Below, piece after piece: positions 1,953 to 60,999 of a stretch of DNA of 64,000 bases; position 1 is the stretch's first letter; each line of letters starts with the position of its first letter. Source of the DNA: Eledone cirrhosa (lineage: Eukaryota); contig OZ024755.1 of NCBI GenBank assembly GCA_964016885.1, forward strand, positions 3,720,001 through 3,784,000. Direction: 5' to 3'. The notes below the pieces were generated by a model, which saw only the letters and a list, made by a program, of their open reading frames with translations, was not told where the DNA came from and did no database searches. Position numbers and translations under genes: made by a program.

Positions 1953-2158
1953 TAGGAAAAAGAGTCAAGACCCCGACGGCTGAGCTCCGGCCATTTCGAC
2001 AGCTAGATCCGAACAGTTCAGATCTAGCTGTCGAAACGGCCGGAGCTCAGCCGTCGGGGTCTTGACTCTTTTTCCTACTATCCACTCTACTATCCATAGT
2101 ATCAAGTTCTCTGGTACGATATGGTCCACCTGGTTCCTTACCACACTTTCTTTGTTTT
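1953..2158 (+). mobile_element. Fold-back hairpin element, family H1 (probable Penelope-like terminal repeat remnant)
   Basis: About 58-bp near-perfect inverted arms plus an ~80-nt 3' tail, with (TA)n on both sides. The right arm has the hammerhead 3' half GAAACGGC..GCCGTC. Confidence 0.8.
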
Positions 2159-2187: not shown

Positions 2188-2506
2188 TCTTGCTCAAGGA
2201 AACAACACATCACCCGGTCTGAGTTCAATTCTCAGACCGGGTGATGTGTTGTTTCCTTGAGCAAGAGACTTTATTTCACATTGCTCCAGTTTACTCAGCT
2301 GTTGAAATAAGGTGATAGGGACTGGGGTCCCTATCATTCCACTGCAAAGTGGATGTGTAGGCGCCACGGCAAAAAAGCACCCAGCACTCACTGTAAATGA
2401 GGTTGGTGTTAGGAAGGGCATCCAGCTGTAGAAATCAAGCCAGAATCAGTTCCCGTCCCACCCTTGCAAGCATGGAAAAGCGGACGTAAAATGAAATGAA
2501 ATGAAT
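2188..2506 (+). mobile_element. CORE-like tRNA-derived SINE with RTE-type tail and 5' fold-back
   Basis: B-box GAGTTCAATTC, TCCTTGAGCAAGA-like core, and tail GCATGGAAAAGCGGACGTAAAATGA resembling the RTE 3' end at 7490. Confidence 0.7.
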
Positions 2507-2520
2507 GATATATATATATA

Positions 2521-2774
2521 AGTAGAAGGGGTATTTAATTTGTTGGAAATCCGACAAATATACAAATATAAATGTTTATAACTGATTTAGAGCACTCAAC
2601 AAGTTCCTGGAGTAAATATTCAATGATATTAAATAAATGGAAACTATATTTATAAAACCATATTTATTTTATTATATATATTTCAAGGGTACCACCAAAG
2701 TGTTTTGGTACCCTTGAAATATATATAATAAAATAAATATGGTTTTATATATATGGTTTCCATTTATTTAATAT

Positions 2775-2780
<6 letters not shown>
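2521..2780 (-). mobile_element. Penelope-like terminal repeat, family H2, with inverted duplication
   Basis: Palindrome centred on TTCAAGGGTACCA..TGGTACCCTTGAA, which is the hammerhead stem II seen at 22833 and 47455. (TA)n flanks. Confidence 0.7.
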
Positions 2781-2805
<25 letters not shown>

Positions 2806-2895
2806 ATAAAGAGTTGGGACCCGACGGTTGAGCTGTTGCCATTTCAAGAGCTAGTTTCATACTCTACAACTCCAAGTATTGAGTACTCTGTGAAA
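2806..2895 (+). mobile_element. H1 partial copy (left arm joined directly to tail)
   Basis: GGGACCCGACGGTTGAGCT... followed by ACTCTAC..AAGTATTGAGTACTCTG, next to (TA)n. Confidence 0.6.
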
Positions 2896-3457
2896 TAGAT
2901 GGAAAAACTATGATGATGATAATGACTTCCAACTTATCACTGTTCCCATCCGTTCTCCTTACAACTCTACCTGCTCTCTCTCTCATATACTTCCATCACT
3001 TCTCTAACCAATTCCTTCACGCCTGACTGCCAACCCTCTCAATGTTCATATCACTCCTTCATGTAGAACCATATCGAAACCTTTCTCCAGATCAATAAAC
3101 TAAACTAAAAAAAAACCCAACAAATTCTTCCACTTCTAAAAGTCCCGGTACTTTTCCTGTAACTCCCTCACAATATAAATTCCATCAGTCATTCATTGTC
3201 CCAGCACAAATCCCAACTACATTTAATCAATCTTCACTCCCCCCCCCCCCATCTTCCTCTCTAACACTATTTCCAATAATTCCATTCCATGTTTCAATAA
3301 TGTAATAGCTCTATATGAGTCACAGTCTGTAGGATCAGTTTTCCTTATGTACAGAGAAATGGTTGAGAATACTCAATTCCCAAGCCACAGAAATATGGTC
3401 TTCTTTCACTACCAACCCACAAATTTCTGTCATTCTCTTCACACTTTTCATTGCATT

Positions 3458-3894
3458 TAACCCTTTAACATTTACTCTACATATACTATTGCATTTTTGT
3501 CGTAAAGGCTTTATTTTATATAATTATCTCACAGAATATCGAATCAACGTGATTTTGATGTTATTTATTTTGAGAACAATACCTTAACATCAGTATGAGC
3601 AACCAGTTACTGCTGGTTTCTTATATGACTGATTATCTGACAGAATATCGAATCAACGTGATTTTGATGTTATTTATTTTGAGAACAATACCTTAACATC
3701 AGTATGAACAACCAGTTACTGCCGGTTTCTTATATGATTATCTTACAGAATATCGAATCAACGAGATTTTGATGTTATTTATTTTGAGAACAATACCTTA
3801 ACATAAGTATCAGCAACCAGTTACTGCCGGTTTCAACAGAAAGAGGTGAGAGAATTGTGGCCGGATGTGACTGGTTTAAATGTTAAAGGGTTAA
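3458..3894 (+). mobile_element. piggyBac-type MITE with internal ~109-bp triplication
   Basis: TTAA|CCCTTTAACATTTA ... TAAATGTTAAAGGG|TTAA. CAGAATATCGAATCAACG occurs three times. Confidence 0.8.
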
Positions 3895-4328
3895 TACACC
3901 TCTTGCAACAGTTGGCCCTCTTCCACTCTTTACTTTCCTCAATGCTTTCTCCATTCCTTCCTCCACTATCTCCTCTGCCAGTTCAAGACCTGGATTTCTC
4001 TCCATGTTGCCAGCCCATTCGTTCTCCACATTCAACAACCTCTCCATATATATCTTTCACCTTTATATTCTAAATATGTTTATGTATAAATGGTAAAATC
4101 AAAATATAGTGGAGAGCGAAACTTCAAAGAAATAAATATTGTATTTAACTAACAGAGAGTGGCTCTTTAAAGTGGTGTATAAATTACTGGACTGCAATAT
4201 TTTTTTTTTTTATCGATTGACAAGATTCCAGAGCACATGGGTGGAACTTGTCAAATTGGACCAAGGAAATAATGTTTCCATTGGTCTTTCTAATTTCTAA
4301 TACCATCTATAGGTTGCAACTACTGGCA

Positions 4329-4537
4329 GAAAGAGCAACATGAAATAAAGTGTCTTGCTCAAGGATATAATGCATTACCCAGTCTGGTAATCAAACTCAC
4401 AACCTCACAATTGTGAATCCAATTCTCTAACCACTAAATATGTACATCAATGAGGTACATTGCTTGGTCTAGGAATTGAACTCACAACCTCACGATTGTG
4501 AATCCAATTCTCTAACAACTAAGTCACGCAACTTCAC
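4329..4537 (-). mobile_element. CORE-like SINE fragment with duplicated head
   Basis: GAAATAAAGTGTCTTGCTCAAGG plus two copies of AACTCACAACCTCAC..GTGAATCCAATTCTCTAAC. Confidence 0.6.
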
Positions 4538-5614
4538 AGTATTTTACCTGCAATTTAGTTATTGATTCTTGAGAATATATCATATAGCGTCTAGTCATTA
4601 TACTTGGCAGTCTTTCATTTGCACTAACCCATCTACTCACTATTAAGCAACAACAACAACAATAGTAATACATTCATAATGGTCGAATGATGATTGTGCT
4701 GTGTTACACACGGACATCATATTATATTCACCTCAATCAACGAAGCAGGGAAGGAATAGAATTCCCTCCATTTCTCAGTTGAGTGGTTAGCATCAGAAAC
4801 AACGCACATCTATAATATATTTGTTCTTTAAAAAAAAAAAAGGAAAAAGAAAAGAAAAAAGAAAAGAGAACCAAAATGAAAAATAAAACCATAGAAAATA
4901 TCCCAAATTTTCAAAACCAACTTCCGGCAAACTTGAGGTATTTGGCATTCTTATTTGCCAACTGACTTCACACCAGTGAATAATCACAATATTTGGGCAG
5001 TTAGTTTTGTCTATAAAACTTTCATTTTAGTTATTAATAACCATTAATTCGAAAACATGTTTGGGAGGTGTGGGATTTCATATTACAGAAGAGAAAAAAA
5101 AAACTTCCCAAAAAAGCAAAGAATTTAAATGAAAACCATTGCTTCATTTGTTTGTTAGTTTCACTTATTTTCCACTCATACATATTCAGGTGAACATGAC
5201 TAGCTTTTAAACTAGATGTAGATCTATTATATATTGATTTCTTTATATAGCACCAAGGCAATATAACATAGAGTGACAAATAATATTTATAATAAACAAT
5301 GTTAAAATACAAGTGTGTTGTTACATAATGAAACAAGGTGAAATATGTTTGGATAATATTGATTTCTTACATTGGAACAAAACCACATATCATTAGTTGA
5401 GGAAATGCTGTCAAGCTCCTGTTTCTTTTGTTCAGCGAATCAGATTTTTTTTCTTTCCCACTTAGTCAGGGAGAGAAGGGCAGAACCTATGTGTCAATGC
5501 CTGTTCATTTTTTTCAGGGGACCTCCAAGACTAGCAAGGAAGGCAAGGAGCTATTTTCAAAATGAAAGCTTGGTTCCATTCTTGCAATAGAACAAACTCT
5601 ACCAAATATATGCA

Positions 5615-6104
5615 TTAACCCTTTAGTATTTAAACTGGCCATATCCAGCCAGAATTCTCTGACCTCTTTCTGTTCAAACTGGCTGTAACTGGTCATAACC
5701 AGTCACCAATACCAATGTTAAGGTAATAACATCAACATCTCATAGCTTTGTGAGGTAAAGCCTTTACCATGAAAATACAGTAGTATATATAGAGTAATGT
5801 AAATGTTATGTGAGATATTATGTGAGGTAAAGCCTTTACCATGAAAATACAATAGTATATATAGAGTAATGTAAATGTTATGTGAGATATTATGTGAGGT
5901 AAAGCCTTTACCATGAAAATACAATAGTATATATAGAGTAATGTAAATGTTATGTGAGATATTATGTGAGGTAAAGCCTTTACCATGAAAATACAATAGT
6001 ATATATAGAGTAATGTGAATGTTATGTGAGATATTATGTGAGGTAAAGCCTTTACCATGAAAATACAGTAGTATATATAGAGTAATGTGAATGCTGAAGA
6101 GTTA
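5615..6104 (-). mobile_element. Same piggyBac-type MITE carrying a 72-bp minisatellite (~5 copies, 5750-6093)
   Basis: TTAACCCTTTAG start, GAAGAGTTAA end. Unit GTGAGGTAAAGCCTTTACCATGAAAATACAATAG... Confidence 0.8.
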
Positions 6105-6304
6105 AACACAAACACCATTTTGGCAGTCTGGTATTTCTTGATAAGAGAAAAGCAGCCTGTCAGTTATGTTTGTTGTCAAGATAAGATCTAATAAATCATG
6201 TCAAACTGAGACAATCTAGATTTACCTGAAAGGCTTGTGAGACATGTTTAATAGTATATATGTAAATAAGACGTTATTGCTCCAGTCTGGCCACAAAACA
6301 CTTA

Positions 6305-6782
6305 GCAAACACCTTACACCAACCTCTGCTAATGGCACCTGACAAACCAACCTATACTAACAACACCTGTACTAATGGCACCTGACAAACTAAGCTGTAC
6401 TAACGACACCTGACAAACCAACCTGTATTAATGACACCTGACAAACTAAGCTGTACTAACGACACCTGACAAACCAACCTGTACTAACGACACCTTACAC
6501 CAACCTCTACTAACGACACCTGACAAACCAACCTGTACTAACGACACCTTACACCAACCTCTACTAACGACACCTGACAAACCAACCTGTACTAACGACA
6601 CCTTACACCAACCTCTACTAACGACACCTGACAAACCAACCTGTACTAACGACACCTTACACCAACCTCTACTAATGACACCTGACAAACTAACCTGTAC
6701 TAATGACACCTGACAAACCAACCTGTACTAATGACACCTGACAAACTAAGCTGTACTAATGACACCTGACAAACCAACCTGT
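6305..6782 (+). repeat. 26/28-bp minisatellite with 54-bp dimer structure
   Basis: AACCTCTACTAACGACACCTGACAAACC alternates with AACCTGTACTAACGACACCTTACACC. Confidence 0.9.
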
Positions 6783-6837
6783 GACCCAACCTCCAAATTA
6801 AACATATAAAATACATTCACAAAAAAACTAATGTAAA

Positions 6838-7030
6838 TAATTGTTTCTATTTTTGGCACAAGGCCAGCAATTATCCCAGTGTATTACTGGTACTTTATTT
6901 TGTCGACCCCATAAGGATGAAAGGCAAAGTTAACCTTGACGGAATTTGAACTCAGATCATAAAGGGCCGTAACTCTATGCTGCAAAGAATGGCGTCCAAC
7001 TCTCTACCAATACTGCCAATCCACCGCCCT
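6838..7030 (-). mobile_element. SINE family A (tRNA head, Meta-like central domain), full length
   Basis: Family consensus has A-box TGGCAGTATCGG, B-box GAGTTCAAATCC, GCCTTTCATCCTTACGGGGTCGATAAAATAAAGTACCAG and tail GGCCTTGTGCCAAAAGTAGAAACAATT. Confidence 0.9.
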
Positions 7031-7127
7031 AATGTAAATAATGACCAAAGAAAATATATCAAAGAAATCTCTTTGTCTTCTCCTTCAAGATGAACTCATG
7101 ATTTCACTACGAAAACTTGGTTACCTG

Positions 7128-7240
7128 TGGCAAATCGAGGTCAACTTGCCCTTTCATCCTTACGGGGTCGATAAAATAAAGTACTAGTAATGCACTGGGA
7201 TAATTGCTGGCCTTGTGCCAAAAGTATAAACAATTATTAT
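7128..7240 (+). mobile_element. SINE A, 5' truncated
   Basis: Central domain plus tail. Confidence 0.85.
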
Positions 7241-7489
7241 TAAATAAATATTTTTGTTTACTAGACAAAAAATGGCCACCAGCATTAAATAAATAATATA
7301 TTTAATATACTTTAATTTAGTTTTCAACAGCTTACAGTAAAGAAGAAACCTTATAGATTTATCTAACTTTACTGTTTCAAATCCCACAGCTTTATCTGAT
7401 TAATTTTCAGAAGCTTTTTAAATCTTAATTTTTTTTCTTTTCTGTATAATATGATTGGATTGTGCTAAAACTTTAAGACTAGTAAGTCC

Positions 7490-8328
7490 ATCATCTTCAT
7501 CATTGTTTAACATCTAGCTTCTACGCTAGCATGGGTTAGATGGGAGTTGTTCCACTTGAGGCAAGATTGGTTGGGTGACCGTGTCTCGCTCGTATAGGAC
7601 TATCTGGCAGGATACCCTTCCTAGCACCAACCACATTTACAGTGTGGACTGGGAGCTTTTTACTGAGTTACCTACACGGCCACATTACAGCGTGGACTGT
7701 GTATTTTTTTGTCGTGACACCTACACGACCTCATGTATTTGGACTGGATGTTGTGGTACCAACTTTACAGAGAAAGGGTGGTGTTGGTGGGAGTGGGAGG
7801 ATGGAGTAGGGGTAGTGGGTTGGGGTGTATATTTGGTTAAGAGGTGCCTACTGACTGTAGGTTTTGCTTTGTACATAGGCAAGGCGGGTCTTCTGTATTA
7901 CTGCGTGGCACCAAAGATCTCGTTCCAGTGACATTGTCTTAGAGAGGTGCAAGTGTGTAAGGTCGGAATTTATCAGATCGTCCCAGGTTTTTATGGGTCT
8001 ACCTACTCCGTAACTTCCATCAATTTTGATCGCCCTGCACTTTTTTATACAGCTGTCGTCTTTCATGCGCATCACGCGACCATACCAATGTAGTCTTCTC
8101 TCAAGTAAACAGCATCTGATCCCTCTTATTCCTAATTTCTCTCTTAGTTCATTTATGTTTTGCCGTTTGCGTATATTACTATTACACATCGAACGGAGCA
8201 TGCATGCTTCGTTCCTTTCCAGTCTGCATAGATCCTCTGCTCACAATGCCCATGTCTCACTGCCATGTAACATTGCTGTTCATATACAGGCATAATAAAA
8301 TCTGCCTTTCATTTTTAGAGAGAATCCA
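7490..8328 (-). mobile_element. RTE-clade LINE, 5'-truncated 3' end (pseudogenised)
   Basis: Translation MLHGSETWAL..RRLHWYGRVMRM..GRPIKTW is typical of an RTE ORF C-terminus, with in-frame stops. 3' UTR ends in a (TGA)n-type tail. Confidence 0.85.
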
Positions 8329-9025
8329 TACATATATATTCTTGGTGTTTAAATATCAGTTAAATTAAGATGATTCTGTATTCTTGGGAGTATAACAATG
8401 TTGAACATACCCAATAATGGTTCTGGCAAAAACAGGAACTTTGTAAAAGGAATGTCATTAAGATTGACTAATGGTCATTGTATTGTAGATATTAAAGGAA
8501 ATTGCTTTTGGCATTTAATGAAAGGTATTGTTGAGACTAATACCAACATGCCTTCCTTTATTGCTTTATGTCATGGTTTTTGCATAAATTAAATTTTCTT
8601 GTAGATCCTTCATTTTATTGCCAATTTTATTCTGTTCTGCAAGCCTTCTGAGACTAATTTTCTTTTAGCAGCATAAAACTGCACCTATTTCAAATTTTAG
8701 TAAATTAGCATTGATGTTCCGAACACAAATACTACCACGGCATTTGTATAGAGACATCACGTCATCAAGAAGCTATCCATCGATCCTATATTCCTGCAGA
8801 ACCTTCTAAGACCCTCCCAGAAATAAGTGGACAAAGGCGGCGGCAAAGAAGAAGGTGATGAGGAAAGAGAAGAAGATGTAGTAGGAGAAGGCAAAGAAGA
8901 AGCAGCATATATATATCATCATCATCATCATCAATATATATATATATTTATTTGTGATTGCCTCATCGAATAGTACTTGCTGTGTGGCAGCTACAACTTT
9001 GGTTTATACCTAAAATATATATATA

Positions 9026-9190
9026 TCATCATCATCGATTAATGTCCATCTTCCACACTAGCATGGGTTAGATGGGTCCCATTTAGAGGCAAGTTGTATC
9101 CGGTGTCTGTGTCTCGCTCATAGGGGATGTTTCTGGCTGGTTTTCTATGACTTGATGCCCTTCCTAACGCCAACCACATTGACAGTGTGG
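9026..9190 (-). mobile_element. RTE 3' UTR fragment
   Basis: Similar to 7490-7650 (CTAGCATGGGTTAGATGGG..GTGTCTCGCTC..). Confidence 0.7.
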
Positions 9191-9409
9191 GCTGGGGGGA
9201 AAGGGTTATATGCATGTGTGTGTGTATATAATTTTTCCTTCCTTTTCTTTCCTTCCTGGCTTTTTGATTGAGAAAAGGCCTTGGGCACACCGCTGATCTC
9301 GGTTTTACAGCTGATGAAGGATTTCTTTTCTTCTCTTTTTTCGTCAATACTACCTTCTTAAACTTTGTTTTCAGTAACCACACAGCTCATTTCGTTTCTT
9401 ATAATTTTG

Positions 9410-9480
<71 letters not shown>

Positions 9481-9483
<3 letters not shown>

Positions 9484-9624
9484 AAAATGTTTGAGCCCGA
9501 CCGTCAAAATGGCTTGAGCTCTGCCGTCAGGGTCAAACATTTTCCTATTACCCACTCTACTACCCTAAGTATTGAGTACTTTGGTGCGTTATGGTCCATC
9601 TAGTTCCTTACCACACCTCCTTCG

Positions 9625-9626
<2 letters not shown>
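9481..9626 (+). mobile_element. H1 copy
   Basis: AGGAAAATGTTTGA..TCAAACATTTTCCT inverted arms plus the shared tail, flanked by (TA)n. Confidence 0.75.
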
Positions 9627-9662
<36 letters not shown>

Positions 9663-10387
9663 ATAATAATAAATTTGAAACTAAAATCCAAATCTGTTAT
9701 TTTAATAAATATATATATATATATAACCAAAATTAAATTAAGGATGTCATATATATATATAGTTTATATTTAGATCTCACTAATACACTGCTATCTAGAT
9801 ATATGTGGCTTATACTTATTATCCCTGATTGCTCGATACTTACACAATATACCAGCATTTACCAAACCAAACAGCCTAATAATATAGGATCTAGGAACAA
9901 ATTTCATTTTGGGACATTGTTTATTTATAGGGTAAAATGCTTTCTGCTAGTGGAATAATATCATTTGGAATAAATCATGGCCAAGTATGTGTGCATGTGC
10001 ATGATCATGTGTATGTGTGTGTGTGAGTGTGTGTGTGAGTGTGTGTGTGTGGCTTTTCATTTTACCCTTTTTTTTTCTTTGGTTGTTCTTTTTTAAGACC
10101 AGTAGAGAAAAATAGAACAAAGAGTAAGAGAGGAAATGAGATCAGCTACAGTTCAACAGTTCAATGAAGTGCTGTACAATGAAATATAGCATGTTAGAAA
10201 CACAGTAAAAGGACAATGAAAGGCTTCGTACAAACAATGGAAACATCGGTATTAACATGGTTCGTTTGAATAGAAGCAAAAAATAGAAGTTTCTATCTGG
10301 GAAATCAGATGGCATTATTGGTTTGGTCAGTGTAGCCTTACCTGTAATTTATAGAGCAATCAGGCAGATATGAAATACATATCAAAG

Positions 10388-10469
<82 letters not shown>

Positions 10470-10565
10470 ACATGGTACAAGGTAATTTAGTTTGAAAGGG
10501 GAGTAGGGAAATACAATGGACAATTCATTTGTAAAAATGAGGTTATTGCTGTTGCATTTATATAT

Positions 10566-10614
<49 letters not shown>

Positions 10615-10704
10615 CACACACACATGTATATATATATATATTTGCTAGCAGGGAAAGTGGAAGTTAAAACAACAATGATGATGTATATTATTGATAATAT
10701 ATAT

Positions 10705-10823
10705 ATCATCATCATCATCATCATCGTTTAACGTCCATCTTCCATGGGTTTGGACGGGAGTTTTCCCACTTGAGGCAAGATTGGTTGTCCTGCTCGTATA
10801 GGAGGACAACCAATCTTGCCTCA
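10705..10823 (-). mobile_element. RTE 3' tail fragment with 21-bp inverted 5' end
   Basis: TGAGGCAAGATTGGTTGTCCT / AGGACAACCAATCTTGCCTCA, then (TA)n. Confidence 0.7.
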
Positions 10824-13050: not shown

Positions 13051-13186
13051 CTCAAGAAAGTAGCCATAATATTTAAAAAAAAAACATGAAAAATCATTAA
13101 AAACTAAAAGACAAAAATCAAAACATAATAGAAATCCCATTTAATATAAAAATGAAAATAAATTTCAAAATTAGTGGACAACGAAC

Positions 13187-13380
13187 CTGTGAAAGTTATC
13201 ATTATATTCCTCCAAGTGACGCAGTGTCTCTTCAGCTTGTTGTAGAGAACTAGCATCATGGATATATGGTTCCAAACAAATGAATAATTGTTTGATTCTT
13301 TTCACCAGTTCACCTGAGCTGTCGAGTTTTTCTTCCATCTCAGAAAATTCAGTTTGTTCATCCGCAGCTGGTGTTGCCAT
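13187..13380 (-). CDS. TBC1D32: First coding exon of a TBC1D32/BROMI (broad-minded) homolog
   Basis: Translation IKQLFICLEPYIHDASSLQQAEETLRHLEEYNDNFH resembles, from recall, the vertebrate BROMI N-terminus [36 protein letters not shown]. Acceptor TTTTCTGCAG (exon starts 13389), ATG at 13380, phase-2 donor CACAG|GTTCGT at 13187/13186. No further exon was identified in 1-13186. Confidence 0.85.
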
Positions 13381-13874
13381 CTCTTTACACTGCAGAAAAT
13401 GGACAACATTTAATAAGTCTACAACATTTATAAAATATATTCATTGTCTATCATTGTTTTTTAGTAAAGAAAATAAATTCAAACAAAACAAAAAATAAAG
13501 TGAAATTAGGTAAAAATAATTCTTATAAATCTAATAAAGATTCTTTGAAAATGTTCTACATTTATATACATTTTTAATGTTTGAATAGGTTTATATGTTG
13601 TGGTAAAGATGTAAGTTTTAATATTTTAGAGAGAATAAAATAAGTATTTAATGTTTTTGACAGACTGACGTAAAGTTGAGTCAATAAACATAACACAACG
13701 TAACATAATATTAAGAAAAAAACACTGTAACTTCAAAATGATGAACTTCGAAACAATGTAAGCCGAGGTATACCTGTACAAGGTGAAAAACTACAGTAAT
13801 GGATTGAAAATGTTGAGGAATTTAATAATAATAATGGGTTATCTGACATGTCCAGCTATTTTAGCAACATTTGT

Positions 13875-18231: not shown

Positions 18232-18935
18232 CTCTCAGGAATAAGTGGACAATGAAGAAGAGAAAATATGTGACGAAACTGTTGTATAGGAGAATCTTTG
18301 TTCTGATACAAACGATACTAAATGATAAAAAAAATAACATACTAATATAATTTATATTCAGAAGTTAATGGAACAAAACTTAAACATTTAGTCTGACTCA
18401 CTACCACATCTGCCTTCCTTATCGATGTTCGATCTTCATATCGAATTTTATAAAGTCTCTTATAAACAAACAAACAAACAAAAATCAATTCTGTACAACT
18501 AGACATTATTTAAATTCCATGATATGCATCGTCTGGTAATTTTATCGCCAAATGGTTGAACAAAATGTAATAAAATAAATTCAGAATATAATATAATCCT
18601 GGAAAAATATAGAATTTCTTTAAAAGAACAAGAAAAATACTACACGTGAATTCAAAATCAAAATATACTTTAATTACAGATAATAAAATGTCATCTTATA
18701 TAATTAAAAGCAATGAAGTTTAGTGAGATGATAGAAACTGGTCATTGAAGAAAGAAAAATATATAGAGATTTTATTTTATTAGTTTTAATCTAGTTGTCA
18801 TTTTATGAACAAGATTCAAACATATTTATTCATCCATATGTACTTTTTGGTGATATATATTCTAAATGTGGCATATATTACAACACAAGGCTTGTAAACT
18901 TTGTAAATAGTTGTGTGTGCCTGTATATATATATA

Positions 18936-19120
18936 GGAAAAGAGTCAGGACCCCGACGGCTGAGCTCCGGCCGTTTCGACAGCGTTCAGAAATAGCTGTC
19001 GAAACGGCCGGAGCTCAGCCGTCGGGGTCCTGACTCTTTTCCTATAACCCACTCCACTACCCTAAGTATCGAGTACTCTGGTGCGTTATGGTCCACCTGG
19101 TTCCTTACCACACTTCCTTC

Positions 19121-19122
<2 letters not shown>
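18936..19122 (+). mobile_element. H1 copy
   Basis: About 48-bp perfect arms, GAAA at 19001, GTC at 19021-19023, shared tail, (TA)n flanks. Confidence 0.8.
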
Positions 19123-19165
<43 letters not shown>

Positions 19166-19219: not shown

Positions 19220-19320
19220 TGTTGATAGAAACGAACAGGAAAGGGAGATGATTACTGTAAAAAAAAAAAACAACTACTCAATAGGTTAGTATCTTCGATG
19301 GAAGGATGGCTCAAGAAGAT

Positions 19321-19460
19321 ATTCATTTTATTATTGAAGTGATTGATGTCTACAGGACTAGAACTGTTTCATTCGTAAGAAATTATCAAGAAATCCTGAT
19401 AATTACATACGAATGAAATAGTTCTAGTCCAGTGGAAGGAACTTCTATAATAAATTGAAT
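19321..19460. repeat. Inverted repeat with decayed hammerhead-like arms
   Basis: GGACTAGAACTGTTTCATTCGTA / TACGAATGAAATAGTTCTAGTCC; the right arm reads CTGATAA..GAAT GAAA TAGTTCTAGTC. Confidence 0.5.
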
Positions 19461-20784
19461 ACATAGCGAGCAGCGTAGCAAAATAAGTCGAGGTAGTGGG
19501 GAGGCCGCCTGCGTCAAAGATGATATTGCAAAATTAGCAACAGGTAAAAAAAACTATGTTGTCACCAGGCTTCGAAATAAAGGTACACAGTTTCGACTCT
19601 CTACCGACAGTACTGCTGGTCCATTCATGGGGATTGGGATGGGGTCTAACAAGGCAGTTAAATACTATCTTGAAGAATCTTACAAGACCAAAACAAAACA
19701 GAACTTACGCGAAATTTCATGGCGAGGACAAAGAGAAAAACCTAATATTTTCTCCAGAGTCTTTGTTGCTACTACATTCATATTTAACGTCTTACATTCT
19801 TCCACCCTGTCAGATGTTCTTTCCCATCCCTCAGATCAAAAATATCATAGACAATTCCATCTTTTCTCCAGCACAATGAGTAAAAAATTGCAATACTTAA
19901 CTGACATTGAAGAGAGAGAGAGAGGGAGAGAACAGTTTTGAAAATATTTTGATAAGTATTTGCAATATTGAAAGTATATAGGAATAAATGAACTGTCCTG
20001 TAGTTAATCACATCGGATAACATCATTTTAATGTCGTTATACTAAAAATCAATAGATTTAGGGGAAAAAAAACAGCAAAAAGAAGAAAAAAACTTAACTT
20101 TAGCAAAGTTTCTATGAATTGCTGTCTAAAGACTTTGCTGGCAATCTTTTCAATACCATTTTCAATACAGTTTGAACCACGCCTTCCAAGCTAATATTCA
20201 GCAAAGTAAAACGAATTGTAAAGAAAGAAAGAAAAGGTAAAATAAATCTTTAAGTCTTCTCCAAATACTAGACTGGATATTTGTCGTCTGCTTTACTTTA
20301 CAAATCAACATCTAGGTCAGCCATAAGGAAAATTAGTATGATATAGCGATATCGGGATTATATTTATAGAATTTTGTATAAAAGTTATACATGGGGGGTT
20401 ATAACTAACCATACCAATAGAGTAGGGTTTCCTAACATGGGCGTTATCGCCAACTGTTGGCTGAGCGATGAGTAACTGAACAAAAGATGGTGGGTGGCTG
20501 GAAGTTTTGATAGACAATATAGGATTTCGAATATTAAGAAGGTATTTCAACATATGCACCCCCCCCCCCACATACAAAAATCACATGGTGTTCAATTATG
20601 ATTGTATGTATGTATAGTCCCATAACTTCTGATAGAGTCGTAGCGGCGCTGTATTGACATACGGCATTTTGGGTGCATGTTTAGCCTAGCAGAACCCATC
20701 TCCTCTCCAAGCCTGAGTACAACAGATTTCTTCCAGAGAAAGATAGAAAGTGAGAGAGGAGAAATGAGAAAGAGATATAGAGGA

Positions 20785-39455: not shown

Positions 39456-40701
39456 ATGTTGTGGCGACACAATAATCCTGGTTCAACTTCTTCCAGATAT
39501 TTGAACATAAATTGTCAATAAAGATAAAACTATTCGTAATAACGCTCTACCGAGTATATGCAACATCAACAAAACGATCAAAGTGATTGATTATTCTGAA
39601 GGTTTTGATATAAATTTAGAACTATTGGGGGAGATTTCCATTCTCAACCTTAAGGTCATCCTTTAAGAATCTTTAAATTATGGATTTCTGGCAGAGAGTA
39701 AAGAAATGATGTTTTATCTAAGAACTAATCTCAATTCACTTTTCCAATTACTTCAGCCATAACACAATAAAAAGGGCTCCAGTTAAACGTTAGGATAACA
39801 AATAATGATCCTTATACCCTTGAATATATATAATATATCTATCTATCGATTTGTAATTGTGGAAACTCTGCTGTATTTACAGTAAACGAAGAGAATGAAC
39901 GGTTGGAGTTACTGACCTACCAAGCAAAAATGTCATTCATTGACATTTTTGCTTTAGCATATGGTTTTGTCTTTAGGCATGAAATATTATTGTCATCACA
40001 AGAGTGTAGCAGACAAAAATGTCACAATCCACACGTTTACAAACAGAATACAGTTTGTTTCTTTGACATATTCTTTAAATTCTTTGATATTATTAACCAT
40101 TTCATTATAGTATTTCCAATGAAATACATCTTATTTTAATTAATTAATAAAGAATTTCAGTGGATTTACTAAAATAATTTATTATTTCACTACTAAGATA
40201 GTAACTTAATGTAAGGTTTTTATATAAAATGATGTTGGAAGTTTTAAATTTAAATTGGAAACCTTTAAAATCGATGATTTTATTTCATAGAATCAGAGCT
40301 GGTTTTGGCTGGGTTGGTAATTAAAGGGTTAAAAGTTGTAATAAGGTTAGTGGATTGGCAGTAATAGGTAGAGCGTCGATTATATTTAAGATCGTTAAGA
40401 TTTTTATTAGTACCAGGTTTATATTTATGGCTGTATATAAGTCTATTTTAGATTTTGGTGTTTATTATATTATTGCTAATGTTGGGAATTTTCGTTTTTC
40501 GTCTATTCTTATTACGTTCGTAGTTTTTGCAAGTTGTATTTATACACTCTTCTGTGTATTTGCTATTATTCGGTAGGTGAGTATTTGTTCACCCTTTCAT
40601 TATCTCCATTATTATTCCATCATGGTTTAGAATAATTGTTATGTTTATTAATTTTAATTATATTAATGTTTAAGTTAGGTCAATGTATCGTCATGTTATG
40701 T

Positions 40702-41820
40702 GAGGATTGGCAGAATCGGTAGAGAGTCTGACGCCATGTTAGGGCGGTGGATTGGCAGTATCGGTAGAGAGTCTGACGCCATGCTGGGGCGGTGGATTGG
40801 CAGTATCGGTAGAGAGTCTGACGCCATGTTAGGGCGGTGGATTGGCAGTATCGGTAGAGAGTCTGACGCCATGTTAGGGCGGTGGATTGGCAGTATCGGT
40901 AGAGAGTCTGACGCCATGTTAGGGCGGTGGATTGGCAGTATCGGTAGAGAGTCTGACGCCATGTTAGGGCGGTGGATTGGCAGTATCGGTAGAGAGTCTG
41001 ACGCCATGTTAGGGCGGTGGATTGGCAGTATCGGTAGAGAGTCTGACGCCATGCTAGGGCGGTGGATTGGCAGTATCGGTAGAGGGTCGGATGCCATGTT
41101 AGGGTGGTGGATTGGCAGTATCGGTAGAGAGTCTGACGCCATGTTAGGGCGGTGGATTGGCAGTATCGGTAGAGAGTCTGACGGCATGTTAGGGTGGTGG
41201 ATTGGCAGTATCGGTAGAGAGTCTGACGCCATGTTAGGGCGGTGGATTGGCAGTATCGGTAGAGAGTCTGACGGCATGTTAGGGCGGTGGATTGGCAGTA
41301 TCGGTAGAGAGTCTGACGCCATGTTAGGGCGGTGGATTGGCAGTATCGGTAGAGAGTCTGACGCCATGTTAGGGCGGTGGATTGGCAGTATCGGTAGAGA
41401 GTCTGACGCCATGCTAGGGCGGTGGATTGGCAGTATCGGTAGAGGGTCGGATGCCATGTTAGGGTGGTGGATTGGCAGTATCGGTAGAGAGTCTGACGCC
41501 ATGTTAGGGCGGTGGATTGGCAGTATCGGTAGAGAGTCTGACGCCATGTTAGGGCGGTGGATTGGCAGTATCGGTAGAGAGTCTGACGCCATGTTAGGGC
41601 GGTGGATTGGCAGTATCGGTAGAGAGTCTGACGCCATGCTAGGGCGGTGGATTGGCAGTATCGGTAGAGAGTCTGACGCCATGTTAGGGTGGTGGATTGG
41701 CAGTATCGGTAGAGAGTCTGACGCCATGTTAGGGCGGTGGATTGGCAGTATCGGTAGAGAGTCTGACGGCATGTTAGGGTGGTGGATTGGCAGTATCGGT
41801 AGAGAGTCTGACGCCATGCT
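40702..41820 (+). repeat. 45-bp satellite (~25 units) derived from the SINE A head
   Basis: Unit GGCGGTGGATTGGCAGTATCGGTAGAGAGTCTGACGCCATGTTAG. Confidence 0.95.
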
Positions 41821-47568: not shown

Positions 47569-47757
47569 AACGAAGGAAATGTGGTAAGGAACCAGGAGGA
47601 CCATAACTCACCAAAGTACTCAATACTTAGGGTAGTAGAGTGGGTAATAGGAACGAGTAGGACCCCGACGGCTGAGCTCAAGCCGTTTCGACGGCTAATT
47701 CAGTCCAGAATTAGCCGTCGAAACGGCTTGAGCTCAGCCGTCGGGATCCTACTCGTT

Positions 47758-47760
<3 letters not shown>
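47569..47760 (-). mobile_element. H1 copy
   Basis: AGGAACGAGTAGGA..TCCTACTCGTTCCT arms, reverse tail, (TA)n flanks. Confidence 0.8.
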
Positions 47761-47796
<36 letters not shown>

Positions 47797-58366: not shown

Positions 58367-58541
58367 GAGTCAGGACCCCGACGGCTGAGCTACGGCCGTT
58401 TCGACAGATAGATCTGTCGAAACGGCCGGAGCTCAGCCGTCGGGGTCCTGACTCTTTCCCCATTACCCACTCTACTACCCAAAGTATCGAGTACTCTGGT
58501 GCATTATGGTCCACCTGGTTTCTTACCACACCTTCTTTGTT
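58362..58541 (+). mobile_element. H1 copy
   Basis: GAGTCAGGACCCCGACGG.. inverted arms plus tail, (TA)n flanks. Confidence 0.8.
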
Positions 58542-58719: not shown

Positions 58720-60999
58720 GCTCTGTTCGGACGTCCTTTTTGCTCGCTCCCAGTAAGTCGTTTATTTACCTGTTATAATTATTTGTTGCTTAATTTTTCT
58801 TGTTGTGTAAGGGATATAAGTCCTTGGACCATGCCCTGTGAAGGGGTAAGTATAATAATAGTTGGGCCTTTTGGCCCAAATATTTGAACATTTTACTTTT
58901 GAAAATTAAAAAAAAAAAACATGGCTGAGCCACGCCCCCAGCTATATGTCTGCTGTCGTGTGACAACGGCGTAAAACTTGAGAGTAAGGTTAGTGGAATT
59001 CATACAACAAACACCACCACAAACAACGTGAACAAAGACAACAACACTGAGAACACTAATTTTAAAAAAATTACCACACCAACTACAGCAATAACAGCGT
59101 CAACCAAAATACAGGCAACAGAAAAAAATGACAACAAATGCAACAACGAGAAAATAAACAACGATAACAGCAACAATACAAATTGCACCGAAAATAACAA
59201 GAACGATGGCACCAAGAACACAACCAACTACAACAGTGATAACAGCAACAACACCAACAACACCGTTTGTAGCAGTAGCAACAGCACCAACAACAAGACC
59301 AGTAGCAGCAGTAGCGGCAGCAATAATGGTGCCGCTGAAAAAGGGGCCACTTCGCAGGTGTGGCCCGAAATATAGAGACAGTGCTAGTCACGGAGGAGGA
59401 GATGGCAGTGACAAGAGCCATGGTGTCAAGAAACGACAAGCATCACCACCAGCATCACCAAAAACACCAACATCGCAAACAACAAAACACACACACACCC
59501 ATCAGCAACAACAAGAAAACAGCAACAAAATCCCCCCTCCTCCCCAAAAAGTACACAGCCATAAACATGGCAAATAAAGAACTCTTACAACATATAAAGC
59601 AGCACACAGACGTCACAGAAAAAAAACTACTACACCCCACCAACGCCAAGAACTCTCCCGACAAACATAAACATCATTGAAATCAAAATAGAACATTACA
59701 AACTTTTAAAACAAAAATTCCCTAACGCTGTTGGAGACTTCAGAGGGTCGGTTACTAGAGGATATACACCGACATCCTCTTGGAAACACCCATGACCAGC
59801 CAAAGGGATGGTTCTATTGTCCCTTCACCACACGATCAAGGTAAGTGATCCTTTCTCACTTACCCCGCTTCTCATCCAACATGGCCGTACTTAGAATAGG
59901 CAGTATAAATGCACGTGGCCTGGGGTCATCTTGGAAGCAGGGTCACCTGCTCAACGACCTCAGGTCACTAAATATAGATGTGGTGGCCATCAGCGAGACC
60001 AGAATCTCCGAAGCACGAGCCTTCGCAACGATCTTCGGCGGCTACGATGTATACGCATCTCCTAGCCGTCCAGGATCGGGGGGAGGGGTTGCCATGCTTT
60101 TTCGGAGAGGCTTGGATCACGCTATACGGGCCATCTTCCTGGACACAGAAGGTAAGTCGGTGGTGCTGGACGTGGCCGGCAGCGAAGGCAATGTTTTCAG
60201 GCTAGTAGCCGTCTAGGCTCCAACAGGGACAGGACGGCCAGATTTCTTCAGACATCTAGAGACCTTTCTCGGAACGTCCCGTTCTTTAAAGTTAGTGGGC
60301 GACTGGAACTGTATCTTAGATGCACGCTGGAATTATGTGGGGCTAGTAGACAGGGCAGGAGGGTGTAAAAGCCTCAACAACCTGCTCAGACGTTTTGAAC
60401 TGTCTGACAGGTATAGACTGGATTATCCGAATGTGCCAATGTGGACATGGGCAAACCGCATTGGGTCATCCAGATCGTATTTAGATAGAGTATTCTGTAG
60501 GGAAACAGATAAGGCTAGTGTAGGCTGTCCGCAATTTAAAGTAGTCGACTACACGGACCACAATTTGTGATCTGTGAAGTTGACTTAGATAGACTCCATA
60601 GGCAAGGGCCCGGCTACTGGAAGCTGAACGCGTCGTTCCCGGCACGCAAAGCTTACAGAGACCGGATTAGCGAATTAGTAAAGCGTGCGTTGACGGGTGC
60701 GATCGTCAACAACAGATGGCGGTTTACCCTGAAAAGGGCTATTAGAGTAGAATCGATAGGGTTTAGCAAAGGAGTAGTGATAGGGGAAAATAGAGTAGAG
60801 GGAGAGTTAGTTAGAAAGCATTTGAACAATTAGTTAGAAAGCATTGGATCAATCTCAAGCATTTGATAGGGTCGACCATCGGTACCTAACTGCGGTCCTC
60901 GAGGCGGCCGGCTTCGGGCCCGTTTTTAGGGTTTATCGTCCTGTACTGTTCTGTGCCGTCTCTAATGTTTTTCTTCATATTAGCCCTTGTGGCCAATAA
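58720..60999 (+). mobile_element. Tx1/L1-clade non-LTR retrotransposon, decayed, RT domain deleted
   Basis: Low-complexity ORF1 remnant (~58921-59870), then an APE endonuclease from 59881. 20-nt direct repeat at 58674-58693 and 61000-61019. Confidence 0.8.
59881..60830 (+). pseudogene. ORF2 apurinic-like endonuclease domain, disrupted
   Basis: Motifs SINARGL, DVVAISET, GGGVA, VAV*AP (stop at 60214), GDWN, SYLDRVF, TDH, then a frameshift and GPGYWKLN. Confidence 0.85.

What the first reader, a model, noticed from the sequence alone, without database searches (positions are those of the whole stretch)
2188..10823. Unrelated retroelements share a 5' fold-back centred on a stem-loop and ending at (TA)n
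Seen: the CORE-like SINE has perfect 36-bp arms (2188-2223/2231-2266) centred on its tRNA T-loop (GAG TTCAATT CTC). The RTE tail has 21-bp arms (10771-10791/10803-10823). H2 (2521-2780) and most H1 copies are centred on hammerhead stem II. In each case the inverted arm stops at a TA run. Inference: a shared, possibly host-level mechanism. The cDNA or a broken end would snap back at an existing hairpin, self-extend, then join (TA)n by microhomology. This differs from L1 twin priming, which inverts without extensive duplication.
Basis: partly seen in the sequence, partly recalled or inferred. Interest (0 to 1): 0.72.

Follow-up and report, generated by a model that had tools for sequence, protein, structure and literature searches.

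The report
Two routes to retroelement hairpins
These hairpin-shaped insertions are real but likely arise in two ways: the ribozyme-bearing ones are ends of Penelope-like jumping genes, likely copied twice from opposite sides of a cut TA repeat (a known shape), while a rare minority of SINE and RTE copies likely formed when the half-made DNA copy folded back and copied itself.

Summary
The palindromes exist at the stated places and far exceed chance, but one shared mechanism is not supported. H1 and H2 are 3' ends of Penelope-like elements (H1 of Hydra type). 27 of 49 random H1 copies are palindromic. The tail-less arm starts at a fixed site, usually carries the spacer (21 antisense, 10 sense), and can be kilobases longer and hold the ORF. 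It is therefore likely a second cDNA primed from TA, not a fold-back. The inverted-copy-plus-tail shape is published, and this scan reported it before on other DNA of this genome. The SINE and RTE tail are related: the SINE's 3' half is RTE 3' UTR. Their fold-backs recur but are rare (about 0.2% of SINE copies; 0 of 54 and 0 of 46 random copies). They replace the 5' head, keep a sense spacer (18 to 1), end variably and share rare variants between arms, which fits first-strand cDNA snap-back. Stops cluster at the T-arm (27 of 35), yet only 5 of 35 use the T-stem. Ending at TA is no commoner than for ordinary copies; TA is the common target.

The parts
1953..2157 (+). H1 copy: 3' end of a Hydra-type Penelope-like element; inverted tail-less arm 1953-2009, sense arm 2021-2077 with the 3' half of a hammerhead, one-sided tail to about 2157
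   Evidence: family linked to RT and endonuclease ORF in L077, L267, L273
2158..2187 (.). TA-type microsatellite, target site shared by H1 and the SINE
2188..2223 (-). 36-bp inverted arm replacing the SINE's tRNA-like 5' head; one base of microhomology with the TA run
2224..2230 (+). T-loop of the SINE head, kept in sense orientation as spacer
2231..2508 (+). SINE body; about 2334-2493 is homologous to the RTE 3' UTR, followed by a short ATG-type repeat tail
2521..2784 (-). H2 copy: 3' end of a second Penelope-like family; tail 2521-2615, 79-bp arms 2616-2694 and 2706-2784 (3 mismatches), spacer 2695-2705 at hammerhead stem II, read by eye as belonging to the tail-less arm
   Evidence: family linked to RT and endonuclease remnants in L067, L103
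2806..2895 (+). degraded H1 copy: inverted arm joined to the tail with little overlap
   Evidence: read by eye
7491..8340 (-). ordinary 5'-truncated RTE-like LINE remnant (broken ORF end plus 3' UTR), no fold-back
9481..9625 (+). H1 copy with short decayed inverted arm between TA runs
10706..10802 (-). RTE-like 3' tail (about 90 nt plus ATG repeats); spacer 10792-10802 in sense orientation
10803..10823 (+). 21-bp inverted arm of the RTE tail, ending at a TA run
18932..19125 (+). H1 palindrome, 52-bp perfect arms, sense spacer (outside the finding's range)
47570..47762 (-). H1 palindrome, 55-bp arms, antisense spacer (outside the finding's range)
58367..58540 (+). H1 palindrome, 43-bp arms (outside the finding's range)

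Best explanation
Two processes likely give the same shape: H1 and H2 are 3' ends of Penelope-like elements whose enzyme likely primes two cDNAs from the two ends of a cut TA repeat and joins them head to head, while the rare SINE and RTE hairpins likely form when the first cDNA stalls, folds back and copies itself before joining the target. Shown: family identity, rates, polarity, spacer orientation, fixed versus variable arm ends, and TA as the target of ordinary copies too. Inferred for H1/H2: one primer starts at the RNA's far 3' site (giving the tail), the other at a fixed internal site (no tail); local snap-back may help seal the joint. Inferred for SINE/RTE: reverse transcription stalls near the T-arm, at the foot of a predicted stem of the SINE head; the cDNA 3' end pairs with itself by 0-4 bases, is extended for roughly 10-110 bases by the RT or a host polymerase (not distinguished), and is joined to the target by 1-2 bases of microhomology.
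For: H1 palindromic in 27 of 49 random copies, H3 in 12 of 22, H2 in 5 of 19, against 0 of 54 SINE and 0 of 46 RTE tails. RT and endonuclease ORF with CxCx5C, CxxC and CxH directly upstream of H1. Tail-less arm holds the ORF in L067 and L103. Spacer 21 antisense to 10 sense in hammerhead families against 18 sense to 1 antisense in SINEs, Fisher p 2e-5. T-loop fold-backs: 10 replace the 5' head, 0 the 3' part; the one opposite-polarity hit is another repeat. Stops at SINE positions 52-57 in 27 of 35 (counted by eye; test). Head stem predicted to end at position 55, z -4.6. Four rare variants shared by both arms at 3 of 25 loci. Two RT start sites and both-strand extension shown in vitro for a Penelope-like element (PMC11167929); inverted copy with one-sided tail and TA targets described (PMC8557442).
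Against: Some hammerhead copies do have a sense spacer at a hairpin (10 of 31), so snap-back may act there too. One SINE locus has an antisense spacer (L280) and two are full twins with both tails; in L285 the arms differ at family-polymorphic sites, as if from two templates. At the SINE's internal 11-bp hairpin, events occur in both polarities (81 and 119 loci) and mostly return to the template, so host DNA-level switching is also at work. Spacer classes were set by a simple extension rule and six mis-paired rows were dropped; raw counts were 24 to 15 (p 4e-5). No enzyme or intermediate was observed. The 2188 junction was not bridged by reads.
Confidence: 0.66

Rival explanations
1. One shared host pathway makes all the hairpins: any stalled cDNA or broken end snaps back at an existing stem-loop and is joined to TA.
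For: All families show hairpins next to TA (65 of 125 random hairpins have TA at an outer end, background 9% per side). Window H2 and SINE centres sit on natural stems. Fold-back at break ends is known in yeast and next to L1 insertions (PMC11724301; bioRxiv 10.1101/2024.12.14.628481).
Against: About 300-fold rate gap; opposite spacer orientation; fixed arm start; ORF-bearing tail-less arms. Only 5 of 35 SINE cases use the T-stem. TA is not enriched over ordinary heads.
Confidence: 0.1
2. SINE and RTE hairpins arise after insertion: a break in the neighbouring TA run is resected into the element, folds back and is rejoined.
For: Terminal events of both polarities exist at the internal hairpin (1 of 15 lose the 5' part, 3 of 15 the 3' part). 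The T-arm is near the 5' flank, so distance could explain the 10 to 0 polarity.
Against: End points cluster at positions 52-57 with only 0-2 bases of pairing in most cases, which DNA structure does not explain but an RNA stall would. The far stronger 11-bp hairpin gives mostly internal, returning switches rather than 5' terminal arms.
Confidence: 0.13
3. The Penelope-like enzyme occasionally captures SINE or RTE RNA and inserts it in its own twin-primed fashion.
For: Head-to-head chimeras of SINE/RTE-type and H1 arms (L036, L082); full twins with two tails (L199, L223, L282, L285); shared TA target.
Against: Spacer orientation 18 to 1 sense, unlike the hammerhead families; variable arm ends; normal RTE-type 3' tails.
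Confidence: 0.09
4. The palindromes are assembly or library artefacts.
For: The 2188 and 10771 arms are perfect, and one search did not bridge the SINE junction.
Against: Arm-to-arm substitutions (71 in 2,493 sites in hammerhead families; also in SINE loci), unique flanks, recurrence on many chromosomes, and strand switches in raw reads of three runs.
Confidence: 0.02

Closest known systems
Insertion units of endonuclease-positive Penelope-like elements, Hydra clade (Craig et al. 2021, PMC8557442)
   Same: Inverted 5'-truncated copy next to the insertion, tail on one end only, hammerhead, CxCx5C linker, TA targets.
   Different: Here most copies are 150-300 bp stubs; tails are about 80-95 bp rather than 30-40; the H1 core is a variant of the canonical sequence.
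Internal initiation by Poseidon-Ac (Frangieh et al. 2024, PMC11167929)
   Same: Two RT start sites bracket the tail; both target strands are cut and extended; AT-rich targets.
   Different: That work is in vitro on another clade and did not resolve how inverted arms are joined.
L1 twin priming and 5' microhomology joining (review PMC10760644)
   Same: Two primers at one target; 5' junction with microhomology; some H1 copies are inversions with almost no overlap.
   Different: Most H1/H2 copies duplicate the arm; SINE cases show one cDNA copied back. The lack of long duplication in L1 inversions is recalled, not read.
Fold-back templated inverted duplications at breaks (yeast, PMC11724301; L1-induced ends, bioRxiv 10.1101/2024.12.14.628481)
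   Same: 3' end self-anneals on about 2 bases, is extended, then end-joined; short inverted duplication.
   Different: There the folded strand is genomic DNA; here it is inferred to be the cDNA, with stops clustered at an RNA structure.
Short replication template switches (PMC5453318, search listing only)
   Same: Matches the returning, both-polarity events at the SINE's internal 11-bp hairpin.
   Different: Does not remove the element's 5' head or end at the target.

Membership tests
Hydra-clade Penelope-like element (H1) | [quoted passage not shown] | tested here: met
   RT-thumb-like and endonuclease-like ORFs in that order upstream of H1 in L077, L273; Pfam GIY-YIG hit is weak, E 0.046, below cut-off; RT identity is by recalled motifs
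Hydra-clade Penelope-like element (H1) | CxCx5C linker, with CxxC and CxH motifs | tested here: met
   definition read in PMC8557442 section 11
Hydra-clade Penelope-like element (H1) | CCHH motif absent | tested here: met
   one cysteine only inside the GIY-YIG core, by inspection of the peptide; no alignment made
Hydra-clade Penelope-like element (H1) | RWK and DKT motifs; placement in the RT tree | not tested
   no full-length ORF examined
Hydra-clade Penelope-like element (H1) | canonical hammerhead | tested here: inconclusive
   stems II and III fold as expected but the core departs from CUGANGA; no Rfam hit at gathering score; cleavage not testable
Penelope-like element (H1, H2) | inverted copy, one-sided tail, TA target | tested here: met
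Penelope-like element (H2) | link to an RT and endonuclease ORF | tested here: met
   H2 lies about 1.5 kb downstream of such ORF remnants in L067 and L103; clade not determined
RTE-dependent tRNA SINE | 3' end shared with the partner LINE | tested here: met
   about 160 nt align with the LINE 3' UTR and tail
CORE-SINE superfamily | CORE central domain | not tested
   resemblance recalled; a CORE SINE is reported from octopus (PMC4758252 passage) but no sequence was compared
RTE clade LINE | RTE-type RT | tested here: inconclusive
   broken ORF end translated; the clade label rests on recalled motifs
L1-type twin-primed inversion (SINE cases) | inversion without long duplication | tested here: not met
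   arms duplicate the body
Break-end fold-back duplication (SINE, RTE cases) | dependence on host polymerase and end joining | not testable with these tools
   only products are seen

The most novel reading that the evidence does not exclude
Stalled cDNA ends self-prime in RTE-driven retrotransposition as a regular third kind of 5' end, beside truncation and twin-primed inversion, with stops set by the RNA's fold; the same sealing step closes Penelope twin cDNAs and now and then joins a SINE or RTE cDNA to a Penelope cDNA at one cut, so the genome holds tens of thousands of records of a shared end-joining step.
Probability: 0.25. Interest if true: 0.65.

Novelty: new variant of a known kind. 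Interest (0 to 1): 0.4.

Why it matters
How non-LTR and Penelope-like insertions close their 5' end is still open. This genome offers two separable natural records: very many twin-primed Penelope stubs, and dozens to hundreds of SINE/RTE copies that look like cDNA snap-back. Spacer orientation separates the two from sequence alone. The Penelope shape is known; the SINE snap-back class is rare, so its genomic effect is small. I found no description of it in searches, which cover open-access text only.

Tried and rejected
Rfam at gathering score found nothing in the window. The repeat finder was swamped by TA runs. Family consensus already palindromic: rejected for the SINE and for H1 (intact 5' halves in L077, L118, L160). 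Laying runs on 1945-2820 did not bridge the SINE junction; other copies dominate the depth. Pfam gave no significant hit for the four ORF pieces. An m1A58-type stop (recalled tRNA chemistry) does not fit, since stops peak at positions 54-56, not 61. Whether ordinary SINE truncations also cluster at the T-arm could not be settled, because older subfamilies with other heads confound alignment ends. A survey for more A-to-G hypermutated copies found only L208 among 275 SINE alignments, and no relative of it among 40 scored candidates. The random sample stayed at 1.18 Mb, so the rates for rare classes have wide limits. The original twin-priming paper was not read.
Full report
Observation. The window lies in a 3.0-Gb animal genome; that its repeats look octopus-like is recalled, not tested. 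A direct scan confirms perfect arms at 2188-2223/2231-2266 (36 bp) and 10771-10791/10803-10823 (21 bp). H2 is a 79-bp palindrome at 2616-2784 with 3 mismatches and a one-sided tail at 2521-2615. The longest perfect arm in 30 simulations was 13 bp. The SINE consensus is not palindromic: none of 29 other top copies is folded back.

Frequencies. I drew 118 evenly spaced 10-kb stretches (1.18 Mb). After dropping three tandem-array loci, 125 hairpins remained, 65 with TA at an outer end, against a 9% per-side background. By family, close palindromes occur in 27 of 49 H1, 12 of 22 H3 and 5 of 19 H2 copies. They occur in 0 of 54 SINE, 0 of 46 RTE-tail and 2 of 161 copies of a second SINE, plus one full twin of that second SINE. 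Genome-wide exact patterns give 10 T-loop fold-backs against 23,896 ordinary copies. A wider pattern gave 68 loci; 35 of the 50 listed belong to this SINE by eye, 4 have no spacer and 11 are another repeat or unclear. That extrapolates to about 48 loci, about 0.2% of copies. For the RTE-tail site, 3 of 4 hits are genuine.

What H1 and H2 are. Long H1 copies run upstream into an RT-thumb-like ORF and an endonuclease-like ORF with CxCx5C, CxxC and CxH and one cysteine in the core. That matches the Hydra clade as defined in PMC8557442 (passages and section 11 read). The Pfam GIY-YIG hit is weak (E 0.046). H2 lies downstream of similar remnants in L067 and L103. The same paper describes the inverted 5' copy, the one-sided tail and TA targets. 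PMC11167929 (parts 1-2 of 4 read) shows both-strand extension and two RT start sites that bracket the tail.

Why these are not simple fold-backs. If the first cDNA folded back, the spacer would always be in element sense and the inverted arm could not reach further 5' than the tail-bearing arm. Instead the spacer is antisense in 21 and sense in 10 decidable copies, window copies included. Six rows that paired neighbouring elements were dropped; raw counts were 24 and 15. The tail-less arm starts at a fixed site. In L067 and L103 it carries the ORF and is kilobases longer. Raw reads of three RAD-seq runs show TA after the internal site (2,603-3,019 reads) and after the tail (7,269-9,917), and opposite-strand joints at L160 710-713. 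Many of those joints come from one start, and a likely restriction site at 718 shapes the depth. H2 centres spread from stem III to well upstream of the ribozyme. The best reading is two cDNAs primed from the two TA ends; local snap-back may seal some joints, as at window H2.

The SINE and RTE cases. The SINE's 3' 160 nt align with the LINE 3' UTR and tail, so the two are partners, not unrelated. All 10 exact T-loop hits replace the 5' head and keep a sense spacer. The opposite-polarity pattern found one hit, from another repeat. Of 11 further SINE loci inspected, 8 are sense, 1 antisense and 2 full twins. Together that is 18 to 1 against 10 to 21 (p 2e-5). Among 25 loci, short arms mostly end between SINE positions 81 and 180 (two rows mis-aligned, two full twins), and three loci share four rare variants between arms. 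L285 has arm differences at family-polymorphic sites. The longer strand stops at positions 52-57 in 27 of 35 (by eye; assumes 30 reachable positions). Only 5 of 35 use the 4-bp T-stem; the rest pair by 0-2 bases. The SINE head is predicted to form a long hairpin whose inner stem ends at position 55 (z -4.6), a plausible RT stall. So the stop, not the hairpin register, is what recurs.

TA. Short arms end at TA-like sequence in 14 of 25 SINE loci. Ordinary heads do so in 12 of 18 random and 19 of 25 top copies (p 0.54 and 0.23). The two fold-backs of the second SINE end in T-rich, non-TA sequence. TA is the target, not a special stop.

A third layer. At the SINE's natural 11-bp hairpin, 81 and 119 loci extend the stem in one or the other direction. 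In the 30 loci inspected (15 each, one locus shared), most return to the template with both SINE ends kept; 1 loses the 5' part and 3 the 3' part. This looks like host template switching and keeps the break-repair rival alive.

Comparison and novelty. Fold-back duplication at break ends is known in yeast (PMC11724301, abstract read) and beside L1 insertions (bioRxiv 10.1101/2024.12.14.628481, passages). Twin priming and 5' microhomology are summarised in PMC10760644 (passages). Also seen: bioRxiv 10.64898/2026.07.22.740005 (part 1 of 5), PMC13282606 (parts 1-2 of 3; no mention of such hairpins there), PMC4758252 (passages), PMC5453318 (listing). No supplements were read; those of PMC8557442 may list these families. 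Searches showed no report of cDNA snap-back in SINEs. Earlier notes of this scan had already read the hammerhead palindromes as head-to-head Penelope ends; two look-ups for the SINE case returned nothing.

Verdict. The Penelope part is known anatomy. The SINE/RTE snap-back is a rare, polar, testable variant. Interest 0.4.

Noticed in passing
L208:1361-1665 (G000:C1, 159.59 Mb): Head-out SINE palindrome without 3' tail, with 15 A-to-G changes among 82 aligned adenines on the same strand in both arms and no T-to-C; looks like an A-to-I hyperedited hairpin RNA written back into DNA. Only such case among 275 SINE alignments.
   Followed up: partly
L036 (G000:C3, 356.38 Mb) and L082:9600-9900: SINE or RTE-type sequence joined head to head with an H1 arm without TA between; may be two different cDNAs meeting at one cut.
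   Followed up: no
L199, L223, L282, L285, L138:5699-5964: Full twin palindromes of SINE or RTE tails with a 3' tail at both outer ends; in L199 and L285 the arms differ as if from two templates.
   Followed up: partly
SINE internal hairpin, window 2305-2334; loci L189-L218: About 200 loci with short template-switch events (stem extension, loop inversion) at one 11-bp hairpin: a natural dataset for switch polarity and length.
   Followed up: partly
window 19300-19480: Third hammerhead family (H3) with a 34-bp fold-back; 12 of 22 random copies are palindromic.
   Followed up: partly
L278, L279, L281, L288: Another tRNA-headed repeat that forms palindromes centred at its 5' end.
   Followed up: no
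window 40700-41820: Tandem array of the roughly 46-bp 5' head of the second SINE in front of a complete copy.
   Followed up: no
window 59880-60880: Broken endonuclease-like ORF region of another LINE, judged by eye.
   Followed up: no
window 13180-13400: Short stretch that looks like a coding exon on the minus strand; the host gene was not examined.
   Followed up: no
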